From Patescibacteria group bacterium (GTDB taxonomy: Bacteria > Patescibacteriota > Patescibacteriia > Patescibacteriales > UBA12465): a stretch of 52,802 nt of DNA. The notes beneath the pieces were generated by a model that was given only the letters and a program-made list of their open reading frames with translations, was not told the DNA's origin and did no database searches. A program made the translations under genes and the position numbers. This document shows, piece by piece, positions 30,223 through 32,705 of the stretch. The stretch covers positions 1 to 52,802 of the forward strand of contig JBAYIC010000009.1 of assembly GCA_041665845.1 (NCBI GenBank), read 5' to 3'. The first letter of the stretch is position 1. The number at the start of each line of letters is the position of its first letter.

Positions 30223-31098
30223 ATGAAAAATACTATCAATAAATTTTTATCGCCCGGTCATAATGCTTGTTCTGGTTGTGGCCAATTATCAGCCGTTCAG
30301 GCGGTGATGCGTGGCTTAACCTCAGATACTATTATTGCTAATGCGACTGGTTGTTTAGAAGTAACTACAACTGCTTACCCGCAAAGCTCATGGGGCTTAC
30401 CTTGGATACATTCCTTATTTGAAAACGCCTCTTCAGTCGCCTCCGGAATTAAAGCGGCCTTAGATAAAAAGGGTAATAAAACAACTAAGGTTTTAGTGCA
30501 GGCTGGTGATGGCGGAACATATGATATTGGTTTGGGACTCATTAGCGGTATGTGGGAAAGGGGCGAAAACATTTTATATATTTGTTATGATACTGAGTCG
30601 TATTCAAATACTGGAATCCAAGCTTCCGGTTCTACTCCATACGGCGCCGCGACTACAACTACTCCAAACGGAGAAAAATCAATTGGTTCTAATCAGGTAA
30701 AAAAAGATATGTTAGCTATCGCTTTAGCCCATGGCTTAAAATATGTTGCTCAAACAGCCGCCGGTTTTCCGGATGATATTACTAACAAAGTTAAAAAAGC
30801 GCTCACTGTTTCTGGACCGGCCTATATACAAATTCTTAGTCCTTGTATCCCGGGCTGGAAAATAAATTACAACGAAGCAGTCATGATGGGGAAATTAGCC
30901 GTTAAAACCGGTCTATACCCGATCTTAGAATATATTAATGGATCACTCATTTCCTCAAGTATAAATAATAATTTTAAACCAGAACCAGTGAGCACCTACT
31001 TAAAGGGTCAGGGACGCTTTAAACATTTAAAAGATGAGGAAATAAAATATATTCAAAATCTTGCTAATGAAAATATCAAAAAATATTCTAAAGTATGA
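30223..31098 (+). CDS. porB: Pyruvate/2-oxoacid:ferredoxin oxidoreductase beta subunit
   Basis: HNACSGCG, ATGCLEV, TPP-binding GDGG...YSNTG and ILSPCIPGW motifs. Confidence 0.95.
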   Translation: MKNTINKFLSPGHNACSGCGQLSAVQAVMRGLTSDTIIANATGCLEVTTTAYPQSSWGLPWIHSLFENASSVASGIKAALDKKGNKTTKVLVQAGDGGTYDIGLGLISGMWERGENILYICYDTESYSNTGIQASGSTPYGAATTTTPNGEKSIGSNQVKKDMLAIALAHGLKYVAQTAAGFPDDITNKVKKALTVSGPAYIQILSPCIPGWKINYNEAVMMGKLAVKTGLYPILEYINGSLISSSINNNFKPEPVSTYLKGQGRFKHLKDEEIKYIQNLANENIKKYSKV

Positions 31099-32705
31099 AA
31101 TTTAAAAAAATTAAAAAAATCATATTTTTGATGGCTATTTTTGGGCCTTGGTTTTTTGCAATTTCCGCTAATGCCGGCGGATGCGGATACGGATGTTACG
31201 AGGCTTATAGTGATTTTAATAAGACTATTGCTCCTTGCACTAATATTGGAGGGACGATTGGAACAACTTTTGGACCAAATCCCCAATGCACAAACACCCC
31301 TAAATGTGGCCTCTATCAAACTCCTATCTGTTGCTGCACTGGCGAAGATAATTTCATAGTTCCTGGCGACGGAGGCATACAACCATCTGACGATGCTCCT
31401 AAATTTGAAATTCCTGATTTACAAGTTGATCTTAATGGTCTTAATTTTACCCAACCAACCTGTACTCAGGACGATAACGGTGAATATCTTTGTAAAGTAA
31501 ATTGGCTCGGGGAATATATTACTTGGATTTATAATTATGCCTTAAAAGTTGCTGGTATTTTAGCGGCGATAGTACTTATGGCTGGCGGAGTGTTATGGCT
31601 CATTTCTAGCGGTGATGCTAGTAAAATAAAACAAGCGAGCGATTTAATAATTGGGGCAGTTACTGGACTTGTTATTCTTCTTTCTTCTTATGTTCTTCTA
31701 ATTACTGTTAACCCAGAGTTAGTAAAATTCCGACCGATAACTATGGGGGCGCTTAGCAATAAGGAGGTTACGGAATTAATAAAGGAAAAAAATTCCGGCC
31801 AATCAGGAACTTATCTTAAAGCTGGTTGTGCAACTGATCAAGAATTAGTAACTGGAGTAAATTTCTATGCAACTGGATACTGCCAACCAACTTGGGCTAA
31901 TACAAAAAAATTCTATTGTGCTATTGCTATGAATTGCTCTTGCCCACCTGGAGTGGGTACTGATACTTCTAAAAATTGTGATGAATTTTTTGTAACTCTA
32001 GCAAAAGCAGGAAAACACTATAGCCCCTGCAATGCTTTTCCTAAAAATATTGATTACTGTAATCGTACTTCGAGTGGCGAAGCTCCATATATCGGCTCAA
32101 TCGCTGGGCCAAAATGCAGCAACTTAAATTATGGCGATAAGGTCTGCTTTAATGGTCGGACTTATACAATTAATGATTCTGGCGGCGCTATTCAAGGTAA
32201 AAGAATAGACATTTGGACGGGAAATTGTGCGGGAACGTCGGCGGTTACCGGAATGGGAGTTTTAACAAAGGGAGCTTGTGGTAGTCAGCCGGCAGTAGTT
32301 ACCGGGAGTTTTAACGGTAGCGCTTGGATAACAGGCGGCGGGAAATTTGATCCTAACATTTTTCTACAATCTGGAGATGCAAGTCCAGAACTGGCTCAAT
32401 TGCTAAATTGTATGCGTACTAAATTAACATCTGGAGTAGGAAGAATCTCTTCAATCAGCGATAGTAAATTTATTGGTAATCTAGGCGTTTGTAATACTAC
32501 TAAATGCAAGGGTTGCGCCCATAAATGCTATTCTTGCCATTATGGCGGTGGAGTATCTACCAATAAATCTTATGCGGTTGATTTTGGAGATGAAGAAAAC
32601 ATGACCGCTTTAATAGCGGCGGCTAAGGCATGCAGCCCTGATGCTTATACACTCGACGAAGATAATCATCTTCACGTTAGCGTCTCTAAATGTTCAGGAA
32701 AATAA
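31095..32705 (+). CDS. T4SS-pilin-like protein fused to a 3D (MltA-like) domain and a C-terminal M15/LAS-like Zn-peptidase domain; 30 Cys
   Basis: Signal peptide ending ANA; pilin-like hairpin at aa ~140-210; FYATGY...RTSSG...TINDSGGAIQGKRIDIW; SCHYGG...AVDF...NHLHVS. Confidence 0.68.
   Translation: MKFKKIKKIIFLMAIFGPWFFAISANAGGCGYGCYEAYSDFNKTIAPCTNIGGTIGTTFGPNPQCTNTPKCGLYQTPICCCTGEDNFIVPGDGGIQPSDDAPKFEIPDLQVDLNGLNFTQPTCTQDDNGEYLCKVNWLGEYITWIYNYALKVAGILAAIVLMAGGVLWLISSGDASKIKQASDLIIGAVTGLVILLSSYVLLITVNPELVKFRPITMGALSNKEVTELIKEKNSGQSGTYLKAGCATDQELVTGVNFYATGYCQPTWANTKKFYCAIAMNCSCPPGVGTDTSKNCDEFFVTLAKAGKHYSPCNAFPKNIDYCNRTSSGEAPYIGSIAGPKCSNLNYGDKVCFNGRTYTINDSGGAIQGKRIDIWTGNCAGTSAVTGMGVLTKGACGSQPAVVTGSFNGSAWITGGGKFDPNIFLQSGDASPELAQLLNCMRTKLTSGVGRISSISDSKFIGNLGVCNTTKCKGCAHKCYSCHYGGGVSTNKSYAVDFGDEENMTALIAAAKACSPDAYTLDEDNHLHVSVSKCSGK

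What the first reader, a model, noticed from the sequence alone, without database searches (positions are those of the whole stretch)
31095..32705. Pilin-like subunit carrying two putative peptidoglycan-cleaving domains (3D glycan lyase + M15-like Zn peptidase)
Seen (536 aa): signal peptide; 8-Cys module (aa 30-81, including CCC); VirB2-like TM hairpin (aa ~140-210); a 3D-like domain (aa ~255-390: FYATGY...RTSSG...SIAGP...YGDKV...INDSGGAIQGKRIDIW); and a last domain with S-C-H482...A-V-D496...H-L-H527. Known: 3D/MltA domains cut or bind glycan strands using the Asp of the RID motif, and M15/LAS peptidases bind Zn via SxH...AxD and a late HxH. Deviations: the first 3D Asp (AVDP) is replaced (AGP), a 12-Cys scaffold is threaded through the domain, and the H-to-D spacing is 13 rather than 6. 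Inference: a pilus- or membrane-displayed two-activity enzyme that cuts both the sugar backbone and the peptide cross-links of a host wall, letting an epibiont reach the host membrane.
Basis: partly seen in the sequence, partly recalled or inferred. Interest (0 to 1): 0.8.

Follow-up and report, generated by a model that had tools for sequence, protein, structure and literature searches.

The report
Pilin-anchored two-domain cell-wall-cutting enzyme
An ultrasmall groundwater bacterium (Patescibacteria/CPR) encodes an outward-facing membrane protein that joins a conjugation-pilin-type membrane hairpin to two predicted cell-wall-cutting domains, a sugar-strand cutter and a previously unnamed zinc-peptidase-like domain; the scaffold is common in this lineage but unstudied, and which wall it cuts (its own or its host's) is still open.

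Summary
The ORF (31095..32705, +, 536 aa) and every stated motif are present. Predicted layout:
- Signal peptide.
- 8-Cys head.
- VirB2-like two-helix hairpin (Pfam T4SS_pilin, borderline score).
- A 12-Cys domain.
- A 118-aa C-terminal domain.

The 12-Cys domain is an MltA/YuiC-type '3D' lytic-transglycosylase fold. The catalytic Asp (D372) and the sugar-binding Asp (D361) are invariant. The first of the three Asp is absent.

The C-terminal domain has no Pfam or PDB sequence hit. It defines a Patescibacteria-only family (387 clusters at 50% identity) that is almost always a C-terminal 'cargo' behind the same hairpin. Three lines tie it to the LAS/M15 zinc-peptidase superfamily:
- Its confident model best matches Hedgehog-like and MepK-like phage peptidases.
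- Profile comparison links it, through a sister cargo domain, to VanY.
- It keeps E-x2-H-x-H.

It lacks the canonical Arg and the H-x6-D spacing.

The gene sits at a locus conserved across the order (DsbA, 2-oxoacid:ferredoxin oxidoreductase genes, two pilin-like genes). Relatives carry other wall hydrolases on the same scaffold there.

The domain calls are supported. 'Host wall' and 'pilus display' are untested. I rate it a new variant of a known kind, of moderate interest.

The parts
31095..31175 (+). Signal peptide (aa 1-27; Lys-rich n-region, hydrophobic core, A-N-A before G28)
   Evidence: Hydropathy and sequence. The N-termini of the homologues align here.
31176..31394 (+). Variable Cys-rich head (aa 28-100; 8 Cys including C79-C80-C81)
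   Evidence: Cys positions. C30, C65 and C79-81 are invariant among 14 homologues, while the rest of the head is poorly conserved.
31395..31739 (+). VirB2-like pilin module (aa 101-215): PKFEIP..C123..C133..NWLGEY lead-in, TM1 148-170, cytoplasmic loop SSGDASKIKQASD, TM2 184-206, NPxLVKFxPI tail
   Evidence: Pfam T4SS_pilin PF18895 scores 22.6 bits by hmmscan against a cut-off of 26.6. The six-frame genome search gives 26.6 bits. The module aligns with the 141-178-aa free pilin paralogues of the same genome. Close homologues carry a precomputed PF18895 hit.
31827..32282 (+). 3D / MltA-YuiC-type lytic transglycosylase domain (aa 245-396) with 12 Cys; D361 (32175-32177) and catalytic D372 (32208-32210)
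   Evidence: All 25 family members hit Pfam 3D, best E 1.9e-6. The only PDB sequence hits of the family profile are YuiC. The AF2 model has pLDDT 91.1. 11 of the 12 best Foldseek PDB matches are MltA and MltA-type transglycosylases or YuiC, the other is PA4485; probability 0.92-1.00. The D-to-D spacing of 11 equals YuiC D151/D162. C263 and C378 covary perfectly: 19 sequences have both, 20 have neither.
32346..32702 (+). C-terminal Cys-stapled LAS/M15-like domain (aa 418-536). Invariant or nearly so: D456, H476, S480, H482, Y483, G484, D496, E522, H525, H527, and Cys 439, 466, 474, 481, 513, 533
   Evidence: Found in 387 clusters at 50% identity, nearly always C-terminal. Conservation table. 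No Pfam, PHROG or PDB sequence hit. AF2 model pLDDT 91.2. Best BFVD fold hits are Hedgehog-like, MepK-like and other phage peptidases, TM about 0.5. hhalign to the sister domain A5 gives P 2.4e-5, and A5 to VanY gives P 3e-5, with shuffled controls scoring at most 20 against 34.
26388..31098 (+). Conserved operon context: DsbA-like thioredoxin (26388-27152), 2-oxoacid:ferredoxin oxidoreductase gamma, delta and alpha (27154-29143), pilin-like gene 1 (29160-30215), oxidoreductase beta (30223-31098)
   Evidence: Pfam hits. The same gene order occurs in 20 related genomes from several families. The beta gene's stop and the target's start overlap as ATGA.

Best explanation
The gene encodes an outward-facing, membrane-tethered, disulfide-stapled peptidoglycan hydrolase with two different cutting domains.

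Targeting and folding: Sec targeting and the two-helix VirB2-like hairpin leave the Cys-rich head and the whole C-terminal part (aa 207-536) outside the membrane (inferred from topology). The DsbA-like protein encoded at the head of the operon probably forms the roughly ten disulfides (inferred).

First cutting domain: the 3D domain is an MltA/YuiC-type lytic transglycosylase. D372 would act as the single catalytic carboxylate on the MurNAc-GlcNAc bond, and D361 would hold the -2 sugar. The fold and residues are shown here; the activity is inferred.

Second cutting domain: the last domain is a divergent member of the LAS (VanY/Hedgehog/MepK-like) zinc-peptidase superfamily. It would cut a peptide bond of the stem or cross-link using H482, D496 and H525/H527 with E522. 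It has D456 where carboxypeptidases have the carboxylate-binding Arg, so it is more likely an endopeptidase or amidase than a D-Ala-D-Ala carboxypeptidase (inferred).

Scaffold: the protein is one loading of a lineage-wide modular scaffold (head + pilin hairpin + exchangeable wall-hydrolase cargo) that occupies a fixed chromosomal slot.

Most likely role: it works next to its own membrane, opening the cell's own wall locally. That is a VirB1-like wall-opener for envelope-spanning machines, and for such a job any bond-cutting cargo would serve.
For: ORF, motifs and topology:
-.

Hairpin:
- Pfam T4SS_pilin hits.
- Alignment with the genome's free pilins.

3D domain:
- Pfam 3D hit in 25 of 25 family members.
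- YuiC is the only PDB sequence hit of the family profile.
- Model pLDDT 91.
- MltA and YuiC are the top fold hits.
- D361 and D372 are invariant and in register with YuiC D151/D162, which equal MltA D297/D308 (PMC4499186).

C-terminal domain:
- Model pLDDT 91 with an alpha-beta-loop-beta-alpha-beta-beta order.
- Best fold hits are a Hedgehog-like microvirus protein (probability 1.0, TM 0.51), 'murein endopeptidase K' and other phage peptidases.
- hhalign chain C-domain to A5 (P 2.4e-5) and A5 to VanY (P 3e-5). Controls: 60 column shuffles scored at most 20, reversed alignments 12-15, and an unrelated Cys-rich domain 12.
- 4 of 8 A5 members touch Pfam HH_signal.

Cargo-slot logic:
- Orthologous genes carry 3D, VanY, NlpC/P60, SLT_3 or this domain.
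- More distant homologues carry Amidase_2, Amidase_5 or C39_2.

Disulfides:
- Covarying Cys pairs.
- DsbA-like neighbour.

Anchor reading:
- The same hairpin heads 902-aa and 1819-aa Ig-domain proteins.
- The gene is unlinked to the VirB4-like gene on contig 7.
- The literature notes that most Patescibacteria with VirB2 homologues lack VirB1 (PMC12102498).
Against: No enzymatic data exist.

3D domain:
- The target's own 3D score is below Pfam's cut-off (18-21 bits against 23.8).
- The first of the three Asp (YuiC D129 / MltA D261) is missing throughout the family.

C-terminal domain:
- No direct HMM link to any M15 family.
- No LAS enzyme among the 50 best Foldseek PDB hits.
- The H-to-D spacing is 13, not 6.
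- Against the sister domain, the canonical Asp segment appears deleted.

'Own wall' role:
- The genome already has three M23 peptidases and an MltG.
- Cargo differs between species of one genus. That pattern also fits adaptation to different host walls.
Confidence: 0.5

Rival explanations
1. One reading: the hairpin is a working pilin. The T4SS extracts the fusion from the membrane and builds it into a filament, at the tip or as a minor subunit. The transglycosylase and the peptidase are thereby carried to the host bacterium's wall at the contact site and breach it.
For: - The hairpin is homologous to the genome's free pilins, of which there are seven in an array on contig 3.
- A VirB4-like ATPase is present.
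- Cargo is swapped between species of one genus at a fixed locus, as in polymorphic effector systems.
- Separate housekeeping hydrolases exist: three M23 peptidases and one MltG.
- The T4SS and a pilin array are essential for epibiotic growth in a cultivated relative (PMC12102498 and PMC12857230).
- A predator is known to secrete an MltA-like enzyme onto its prey's wall (title and abstract of PMC10127604).
Against: - No link to T4SS genes. The gene lies inside an oxidoreductase operon on another contig.
- The same hairpin carries cargo of 900-1800 aa, which is hard to reconcile with packing into a pilus.
- No immunity-like gene follows it. Downstream are RNase H and RecJ on the other strand.
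- Nothing here shows extraction from the membrane.
Confidence: 0.25
2. Only the 3D domain is an enzyme. The C-terminal Cys/His-rich domain is a non-catalytic module, for example metal-dependent wall binding, a regulatory or inhibitory cap, or a chemistry unrelated to peptide cleavage.
For: - No direct HMM match to any peptidase family.
- No LAS hit in the PDB fold search.
- The canonical Arg is absent (D456) and the H-x6-D spacing is lost.
- Hedgehog N-terminal domains, the nearest named fold, are themselves mostly signalling rather than catalytic modules (general knowledge).
Against: - Full conservation of H482, D496, H525 and H527, and 87% conservation of E522, in 182 sequences. This includes an E-x-x-H in exactly the VanY spacing.
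- In most family members it is the only cargo on the hairpin: 130 of 241 proteins have the hairpin plus this domain. It thus occupies the slot that otherwise holds enzymes.
Confidence: 0.2
3. The 3D domain has lost catalysis and only binds glycan strands, because the first of the three signature Asp is missing. The protein would then be a wall-binding anchor rather than a transglycosylase.
For: - G338 stands at the first Asp position in all family members.
- The Pfam 3D score is sub-threshold and covers only the second half of the model.
Against: - The residue shown to be catalytic in YuiC and MltA (D162/D308) is invariant here as D372, as is the -2 sugar ligand D361.
- The invariant T260 in FYATGY is a plausible counterpart of the Thr that orients the catalytic Asp (inference).
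Confidence: 0.1

Closest known systems
MltA (E. coli, GH102) and the minimal 3D-domain enzyme YuiC of Bacillus subtilis (PDB 2ae0/2pi8, 4wjt/4wlk; PMC4499186)
   Same: - Double-psi beta-barrel fold. These are the best structural hits and the only PDB sequence hits.
- D-x-G-x2-I-x-G-x-R-I-D motif, with the catalytic Asp and the -2 sugar Asp in the same spacing.
   Different: - The first signature Asp is absent.
- Twelve Cys (six predicted disulfides) are threaded through the barrel.
- A roughly 70-residue Cys-rich insertion lies between the first strand and the core.
- The domain is tethered to a pilin-type hairpin instead of a lipobox (MltA) or a plain signal peptide (YuiC).
- It is followed by a second catalytic-looking domain.
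LAS zinc peptidases: VanY / M15B (PF02557), MepK-type M15A, Hedgehog N-terminal domain (PF01085)
   Same: - Same order of elements: helix, strand, loop with S-x-H, strand with A-x-D, helix, hairpin with E-x-x-H / H-x-H.
- Best fold matches in BFVD.
- Transitive profile link through the sister domain.
   Different: - No direct HMM match.
- 13 rather than 6 residues between His and Asp.
- Arg of the S-x-x-R strand replaced by Asp.
- An extra invariant His (H476) six residues before H482.
- Four predicted disulfides.
- Restricted to Patescibacteria.
VirB1-class wall hydrolases of Gram-positive T4SSs (PrgK of pCF10, TraG of pIP501, CD419/TrsG), as summarised in PMC12102498
   Same: Membrane-anchored, outward-facing, and combining a glycan-strand cutter with a peptidase in one chain. 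The function proposed here (local wall opening) is the same.
   Different: - Different domain families: SLT/GH23 + CHAP there, 3D + LAS-like here.
- A single TM anchor there, a pilin hairpin here.
- Those are encoded inside T4SS operons, whereas this one lies in an oxidoreductase operon.
VirB2-like pilins of Patescibacteria (Pfam PF18895; Quinonero-Coronel et al. 2025, PMC12102498)
   Same: The same two-helix module with the G-G-x2-W-[LM]-x-S-x-G loop motif. The genome also has an array of free pilins.
   Different: - Free pilins are 141-178 aa and end just after TM2.
- This protein adds a 100-aa Cys-rich head and 330 aa of enzyme.
- The papers I could search describe pilin arrays but not hydrolase fusions.

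Membership tests
T4SS_pilin (PF18895) / VirB2-like pilins | Match to the family HMM at or above the curated cut-off (26.6 bits) | tested here: inconclusive
   22.6 bits by hmmscan of the protein. 26.6 bits in the six-frame genome search. Close homologues carry precomputed PF18895.
T4SS_pilin (PF18895) / VirB2-like pilins | Signal peptide followed by two hydrophobic helices joined by a short basic cytoplasmic loop | tested here: met
   Hydropathy shows segments 6-27, 148-170 and 184-206 with the loop SSGDASKIKQASD. The module aligns with the free pilins of the genome.
T4SS_pilin (PF18895) / VirB2-like pilins | Small subunit that polymerises into a T4SS-dependent filament; gene linked to virB4 | tested here: not met
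   The protein is 536 aa. The VirB4-like gene is on contig 7 while the target is on contig 9 inside an oxidoreductase operon. Polymerisation itself cannot be tested here.
3D domain / MltA-family lytic transglycosylases (PF06725, GH102) | HMM match | tested here: inconclusive
   The target scores 18.3-20.8 bits against a cut-off of 23.8. All 25 family members hit 3D, best E 1.9e-6. Two homologues have precomputed PF06725.
3D domain / MltA-family lytic transglycosylases (PF06725, GH102) | Double-psi beta-barrel fold of MltA/YuiC type | tested here: met
   The model has pLDDT 91.1. 11 of the 12 best Foldseek PDB matches are MltA, MltA-type transglycosylases (LtgG, Caulobacter) or YuiC, the other is PA4485; probability 0.92-1.00, although E is only 5e-3 to 3e-2.
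3D domain / MltA-family lytic transglycosylases (PF06725, GH102) | Catalytic Asp (MltA D308 / YuiC D162) and sugar-binding Asp (D297 / D151) | tested here: met
   D372 and D361 are invariant in 25 sequences. They are 11 residues apart, as in YuiC, and aligned to it by the profile.
3D domain / MltA-family lytic transglycosylases (PF06725, GH102) | First signature Asp (MltA D261 / YuiC D129) | tested here: not met
   I-A-G-P with G338 stands at that place in the whole family.
LAS / M15 zinc peptidases | Sequence-profile match to an M15/LAS family | tested here: inconclusive
   Direct comparisons found nothing. Indirect link: C-domain to sister domain A5, P 2.4e-5; A5 to VanY, P 3e-5, against at most 20 bits in 60 shuffles. 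4 of 8 A5 members hit HH_signal weakly, best E 0.007.
LAS / M15 zinc peptidases | Hedgehog/DD-peptidase fold | tested here: inconclusive
   The BFVD top hit is a Hedgehog-like microvirus protein (probability 1.0, TMq 0.51, 121 columns), followed by MepK-like and other phage peptidases. There is no LAS enzyme in the top 50 PDB hits, where the best E is 0.15 and TM is at most 0.28.
LAS / M15 zinc peptidases | H-x(3-6)-D metal-ligand motif | tested here: not met
   H482 and D496 are separated by 13 residues. Against the sister domain, the canonical x-C-A-D-V segment is missing.
LAS / M15 zinc peptidases | Late E-x-x-H or H-x-H motif | tested here: met
   E522-D-N-H525-L-H527. H525 and H527 are 99-100% conserved and E522 is 87% conserved in 182 sequences.
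LAS / M15 zinc peptidases | Arg of the S-x-x-R strand (binds the substrate carboxylate in M15 carboxy- and dipeptidases) | tested here: not met
   The strand reads I-S-S-I-S-D-S, with D456 98% conserved. Compare E-G-F-R-S in pilin-fused VanY domains.
LAS / M15 zinc peptidases | Bound zinc and peptidase activity; clustered ligand geometry | not testable with these tools
VirB1-class T4SS wall hydrolases (PrgK/TraG type) | SLT (GH23) plus CHAP domains, encoded within a T4SS gene cluster | tested here: not met
   The domains are 3D and LAS-like, and the neighbours are oxidoreductase, DsbA, RNase H and RecJ genes. This is a functional analogy only.

The most novel reading that the evidence does not exclude
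The VirB2-like hairpin is a general loading module. Cargo-bearing pilins such as this one would be extracted by the Patescibacteria T4SS and co-assembled with the free pilins into an 'armed' filament. That filament would carry a transglycosylase and a peptidase (and, in paralogues, adhesin domains) to the host cell. Cargo would be swapped between species to match the host's wall chemistry. The C-terminal domain would then be a new, host-directed branch of the LAS peptidases with a rebuilt metal site.
Probability: 0.15. Interest if true: 0.85.

Novelty: new variant of a known kind. Interest (0 to 1): 0.55.

Why it matters
Patescibacteria make up a large share of bacterial diversity and live attached to other microbes. 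How they get machines and materials through their own wall and their host's wall is not known, and most of them lack a recognisable VirB1.

This protein is a concrete, testable candidate: a single chain with a glycan cutter and a peptide cutter on a pilin-type scaffold.

The work here also adds three things:
- It defines an unnamed, phylum-restricted cargo domain (at least 387 clusters) as a rebuilt LAS-type domain.
- It defines a second, related unnamed cargo domain.
- It shows that a fixed chromosomal slot exchanges wall-hydrolase cargo between species.

If the enzymes prove to be host-directed, they would be among the first molecular effectors of episymbiosis.

Tried and rejected
Searches on the C-terminal domain that found nothing:
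- phmmer of the whole protein against PDB sequences gave only chance hits to eIF4E.
- A profile of the domain against PDB sequences gave only chance hits to spike HR1.
- Pfam on 48 members gave only scattered chance hits. The cytochrome-c hits come from C478-x-x-C481-H482, but C478 is only 43% conserved, so this is not a haem motif.
- PHROGs gave nothing.
- Direct hhalign against a 4-sequence and a 23-sequence VanY alignment, and against Patescibacteria M15_3 sequences, was not significant.
- A profile search of 5.8 billion proteins found only unannotated Patescibacteria proteins.

Other negative results:
- A search for M15_3 in 401 genomes of the phylum found only 3 genomes with a match, too few to build a profile.
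- Neither cargo domain has a second copy in the genome.
- PF03135 (VirB4) gave no hit in the genome. The VirB4-like gene was found through PF12846 and PF19044 instead.
- No T4SS component is recognisable by Pfam among the window's upstream membrane-protein genes.
- Promoter and terminator scans were no better than shuffles.
- Only DNA runs (groundwater and landfill metagenomes) hold the locus, so expression could not be checked.
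Full report
**Observation**

The window holds one ORF at 31095..32705 (+) of 536 aa.
- FYATGY 257-262.
- RTSSG 324-328.
- SIAGP 335-339.
- INDSGGAIQGKRIDIW 359-374.
- S-C-H482, A-V-D496 and H525-L-H527.
- Eight Cys between residues 30 and 81, and twelve between 245 and 395.

Hydropathy gives a signal peptide (6-27, with A-N-A before G28). 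It also gives two transmembrane helices (148-170 and 184-206) joined by the Lys-rich loop SSGDASKIKQASD. By the positive-inside rule this puts both the N-terminal head and residues 207-536 outside the membrane. That topology is an inference.

The start codon overlaps the stop of the upstream gene as ATGA.

**Organism and family**

The assembly is 1.04 Mb and 97% complete. The locus is held by groundwater metagenomes. The nearest homologues are named Candidatus Falkowbacteria or Patescibacteria.

A search of 5.8 billion proteins returned 250 homologues. About ten are full-length (520-536 aa, 57-70% identical). Most share only parts. Among the 241 proteins held after (retrieved with the full protein and with its C-terminal domain, so not an unbiased sample), the architectures were:

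| Architecture | Proteins |
|---|---|
| Hairpin + C-terminal domain | 130 |
| C-terminal domain only detected | 41 |
| Hairpin + 3D | 15 |
| Head + hairpin + 3D | 13 |
| Head + hairpin | 12 |
| Hairpin only | 11 |
| Head + hairpin + C-terminal domain | 9 |
| Head + hairpin + 3D + C-terminal domain | 9 |
| Hairpin + 3D + C-terminal domain | 1 |

The two-enzyme form is therefore the rare one.

**Hairpin**

- Pfam T4SS_pilin (PF18895) matches residues 135-201 at 22.6 bits, against a cut-off of 26.6. The six-frame genome search gives 26.6 bits.
- The genome has 13 such modules. Nine are free pilins of 141-178 aa, eight on contig 3 (seven of them in an array) and one on contig 1; a further small match on contig 4 is 178 aa.
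- The target's module aligns with them through the G-G-x2-W-[LM]-x-S-x-G loop and both helices.
- Two further proteins, of 902 and 1819 aa, carry the same hairpin at their N-terminus, followed by Ig-like domains (TIG, Big_5, fn3).
- A VirB4-like ATPase (P-loop_TraG, 101.9 bits) lies on contig 7. It is not linked to the target or to the pilin array.

So the hairpin is homologous to VirB2-like pilins. In this genome, however, it also serves as the N-terminal module of very large surface proteins. That argues for a general tether or display role rather than an obligatory filament subunit.

**The 3D domain (aa 245-396)**

- The target alone scores below Pfam's cut-off for 3D, at 18.3-20.8 bits against 23.8.
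- All 25 aligned family members hit 3D, best E 1.9e-6.
- The only PDB sequences found by the family profile are three YuiC entries. They align I-T-D-x-G-x-x-I-K-G-K-R-I-D-I-W with V-A-D-T-G-S-A-I-K-G-N-R-L-D-L-Y.
- An AlphaFold2 model built on this alignment has mean pLDDT 91.1.
- Eleven of its twelve best Foldseek PDB matches are E. coli and Acinetobacter MltA, a Caulobacter transglycosylase, Burkholderia LtgG or YuiC, and the other is PA4485 (probability 0.92-1.00, E 5e-3 to 3e-2). Other double-psi barrels follow.
- The YuiC paper states three things. D162 (MltA D308) is the catalytic carboxylate. D151 (MltA D297) binds N2 of the -2 sugar. D129 (MltA D261) is the third conserved Asp (PMC4499186).
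- In the target, D361 and D372 are 11 residues apart, as in YuiC. They are in register in the profile alignment and invariant in the family.
- The first Asp is absent: I-A-G-P, with G338, throughout the family.
- Ten of the twelve Cys are 95-100% conserved. The other two (C263 and C378) covary perfectly: 19 sequences have both and 20 have neither. That is what a disulfide pair would show.

I conclude that this is an MltA/YuiC-type domain with its catalytic residue intact. Activity itself is inferred.

**The C-terminal domain (aa 418-536)**

HMMER against 1.84 billion representatives found it in 387 clusters, 214 of them at E below 1e-10. In 175 of 190 held proteins it ends within ten residues of the C-terminus.

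Residues conserved at 92% or more in 182 sequences:
- Q425, S430, C439, G449, S452-S-I-S-D456, C466, C474, H476.
- S480-C-H482-Y-G-G, S492, A494, D496, G498.
- C513, H525, H527, S529, C533.

E522 is 87% conserved. C471 and C478 covary: 73 sequences have both, 97 have neither and 12 have one.

No member has any Pfam annotation other than the hairpin, and all are named 'hypothetical'. PDB sequence and PHROG searches found nothing.

A model built on 48 sequences has pLDDT 91.2. Its element order is helix, strand (R-I-S-S-I-S), long Cys-rich loop carrying H476 and H482, strand (A-V-D-F), helix, then a hairpin whose second strand starts at H525-L-H527. This is the order of elements of LAS enzymes (general knowledge of that fold).

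Foldseek results:
- Against the PDB there was no significant match and no LAS enzyme in the top 50.
- Against viral models, the best hit is a 145-aa microvirus protein annotated as Sonic-hedgehog-like (E 0.01, probability 1.00, TMq 0.51, 121 columns).
- The next is 'murein endopeptidase K' of phage phiM12 (TMq 0.47). Further hits down the list are several proteins named 'peptidase' (TMq 0.37-0.53).

Direct profile comparisons with VanY and M15_3 alignments were not significant.

A bridge exists, however. In a 509-aa relative (P0019) the 3D domain is followed by a different 115-aa domain with the canonical S-x-C-H-Y-N-G-x-C-A-D and a terminal H-L-H. Its eight relatives are all pilin fusions from the same genus and are also unannotated. 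Comparisons with this sister domain (alignment A5):

| Comparison | hhalign result |
|---|---|
| A5 against the C-terminal domain | P 2.4e-5, score 34.3 |
| A5 against a 23-sequence alignment of Pfam-positive VanY domains | P 3e-5, score 33.6; H on H, D on D, helix on helix, E on the E of E-x-x-H |
| A5 against the thin 4-sequence VanY alignment | P 0.0028, same register |
| A5 against 60 column shuffles of either target | at most 19-20 |
| A5 against reversed alignments | 12-15 |
| A5 against the equally Cys-rich 3D alignment | 12 |

In addition, four of the eight A5 members touch Pfam HH_signal weakly, best E 0.007.

Together with the fold hits, this makes membership of the LAS superfamily likely; I put it at about 0.75-0.8. 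The site is clearly rebuilt:
- Relative to A5, the five-residue segment with the canonical Asp is missing. D496 comes from the following A-V-D-F-G-D-E segment.
- The Arg of the S-x-x-R strand is replaced by D456.
- An extra invariant His (H476) sits six residues before H482 in both CPR domains.
- E522-x-x-H525 has exactly the VanY E-x-x-H spacing.

I could not check the metal-site geometry because model coordinates are not provided.

**Genomic context**

The gene is the last of a tightly packed plus-strand set:

| Gene | Coordinates |
|---|---|
| DsbA-like thioredoxin | 26388-27152 |
| 2-oxoacid:ferredoxin oxidoreductase gamma, delta, alpha | 27154-29143 |
| Pilin-like gene with a Cys-rich tail | 29160-30215 |
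| Oxidoreductase beta | 30223-31098 |
| Target | 31095-32705 |

RNase H and RecJ follow on the other strand.

Most of 20 related genomes keep this order, including members of other families of the order. Variants place both pilin-like genes before the beta gene, carry one or three pilin-like genes, or (one genome) lack the oxidoreductase genes.

The scaffold gene in the target's position, or in some genomes the neighbouring pilin-like gene, carries different cargo in different species:

| Cargo | Genomes |
|---|---|
| 3D + C-terminal domain | Seven genomes of the genus, including this one |
| 3D alone | G007, G019, G031, G038, G059 |
| C-terminal domain alone | G018, G024, G033 |
| VanY | G014, G042 |
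| NlpC/P60 | G016, G026 |
| SLT_3 | G017 |
| The A5 domain | G015, G029 |
| Unrecognised | Others |

More distant homologues carry Amidase_2, Amidase_5 or Peptidase_C39_2.

Because the unnamed C-terminal domain shares the slot with known wall hydrolases, it is most likely a wall enzyme too.

The genome has no second copy of either cargo domain. It does have three M23 peptidases and one MltG/YceG, and no NlpC/P60 or VanY.

**Mechanism**

Shown here:
- The domain identities.
- The conserved catalytic residues of the 3D domain.
- The conserved His/Asp/Glu set and the fold class of the last domain.
- The modular locus.

Inferred:
- The outward-facing topology.
- Disulfide formation with the help of the DsbA-like neighbour.
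- Lytic-transglycosylase chemistry at D372.
- Metal-dependent peptide cleavage by the last domain, more probably as an endopeptidase or amidase than as a carboxypeptidase, because the Arg is replaced by Asp.

Which wall is cut is not settled.

In favour of the cell's own wall (a VirB1-like local opener):
- The cargo starts about 40 residues after TM2.
- The hairpin also anchors giant Ig-domain proteins.
- The gene sits in a housekeeping operon away from T4SS genes.
- The literature notes that most Patescibacteria with VirB2 homologues lack VirB1.
- Any bond-cutter would serve such a role, which would explain free exchange of cargo.

In favour of the host's wall:
- The hairpin is homologous to real pilins.
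- A T4SS is present, and in a cultivated relative it is essential for epibiotic growth.
- Cargo turns over between species.
- Separate housekeeping hydrolases exist.

My estimates are 0.5 for the membrane-tethered own-wall opener, 0.25 for host attack by pilus display, and the remainder for readings with one inactive domain.

**Comparison with what is known, and novelty**

The parts are known kinds: a 3D lytic transglycosylase, a LAS-type peptidase and a VirB2-like hairpin.

The papers I could search describe Patescibacteria VirB2-like pilins and pilin arrays. They do not describe fusions of pilins to wall hydrolases.

Within this scan the hairpin-hydrolase architecture has been noted many times. 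By word search, 32 findings in at least 31 genomes mention it, and one note flags the same Cys-rich LAS-like domain elsewhere. These are unchecked AI notes. I re-tested only the points listed under earlier findings.

New in this work:
- The combination of two cutting domains on one scaffold.
- The definition of the C-terminal domain, and of its sister domain A5, as unnamed and rebuilt LAS-type families restricted to this phylum.
- The finding that the slot lies inside an oxidoreductase operon across an order.

I classify it as a new variant of a known kind, with interest 0.55.

Noticed in passing
window 26388-32705: Two pilin-like genes are interleaved with the four subunit genes of a 2-oxoacid:ferredoxin oxidoreductase, behind a DsbA-like gene. 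Gaps are 7-16 nt, and there is one ATGA overlap. Most of 20 related genomes from several families of the order keep this order, with some variants. I have no explanation for coupling a cytoplasmic redox enzyme to surface proteins.
   Followed up: partly
window 29160-30215: A paralogous 351-aa protein has the same hairpin (Pfam T4SS_pilin 25 bits) but a C-terminal tail of about 200 aa with roughly 20 Cys and no Pfam match. Its orthologues in relatives also vary in their tails.
   Followed up: partly
L033:5117-6199 (G029), L032:6882-7907 (G015); proteins P0019, P0100, P0120, P0305-P0309: A second unannotated cargo domain (alignment A5, about 115 aa). It has the canonical C-H-Y-N-G-x-C-A-D motif and a terminal H-L-H. 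It is found only in eight pilin fusions of this genus. It links to VanY by hhalign (P 3e-5) and weakly to Pfam HH_signal.
   Followed up: partly
own genome, contig 6, 54252-62445 (locus L050): Two adjacent proteins of 1819 and 902 aa begin with the same T4SS_pilin hairpin and continue with TIG, Big_5 and fn3 Ig-like domains. They look like adhesin-like proteins on the pilin scaffold.
   Followed up: partly
own genome, contig 3, 71883-79529 (locus L049): An array of seven free pilin genes (141-163 aa) next to SMC, ComM-like and solute-binding-protein genes, not next to the VirB4-like ATPase. That ATPase is on contig 7 at 52266-54203 (P-loop_TraG, 101.9 bits).
   Followed up: partly
window 32526-32540 (aa 478-482): C-Y-S-C-H reads as a CxxCH haem-binding motif and draws weak cytochrome-c Pfam hits in some family members. 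C478 is only 43% conserved and covaries with C471, so this is a disulfide Cys and not a haem site.
   Followed up: yes
window 31095-31133: The public gene call for this protein (P0001, 524 aa) starts at M13 and cuts off the Lys-rich start of the signal peptide. Homologues support the ATG at 31095.
   Followed up: yes
window 10170-13681 and 9210-10160: Three ORFs of 284-879 aa next to the 2645-aa ORF (13685-21622) have no Pfam match at E below 0.01.
   Followed up: partly
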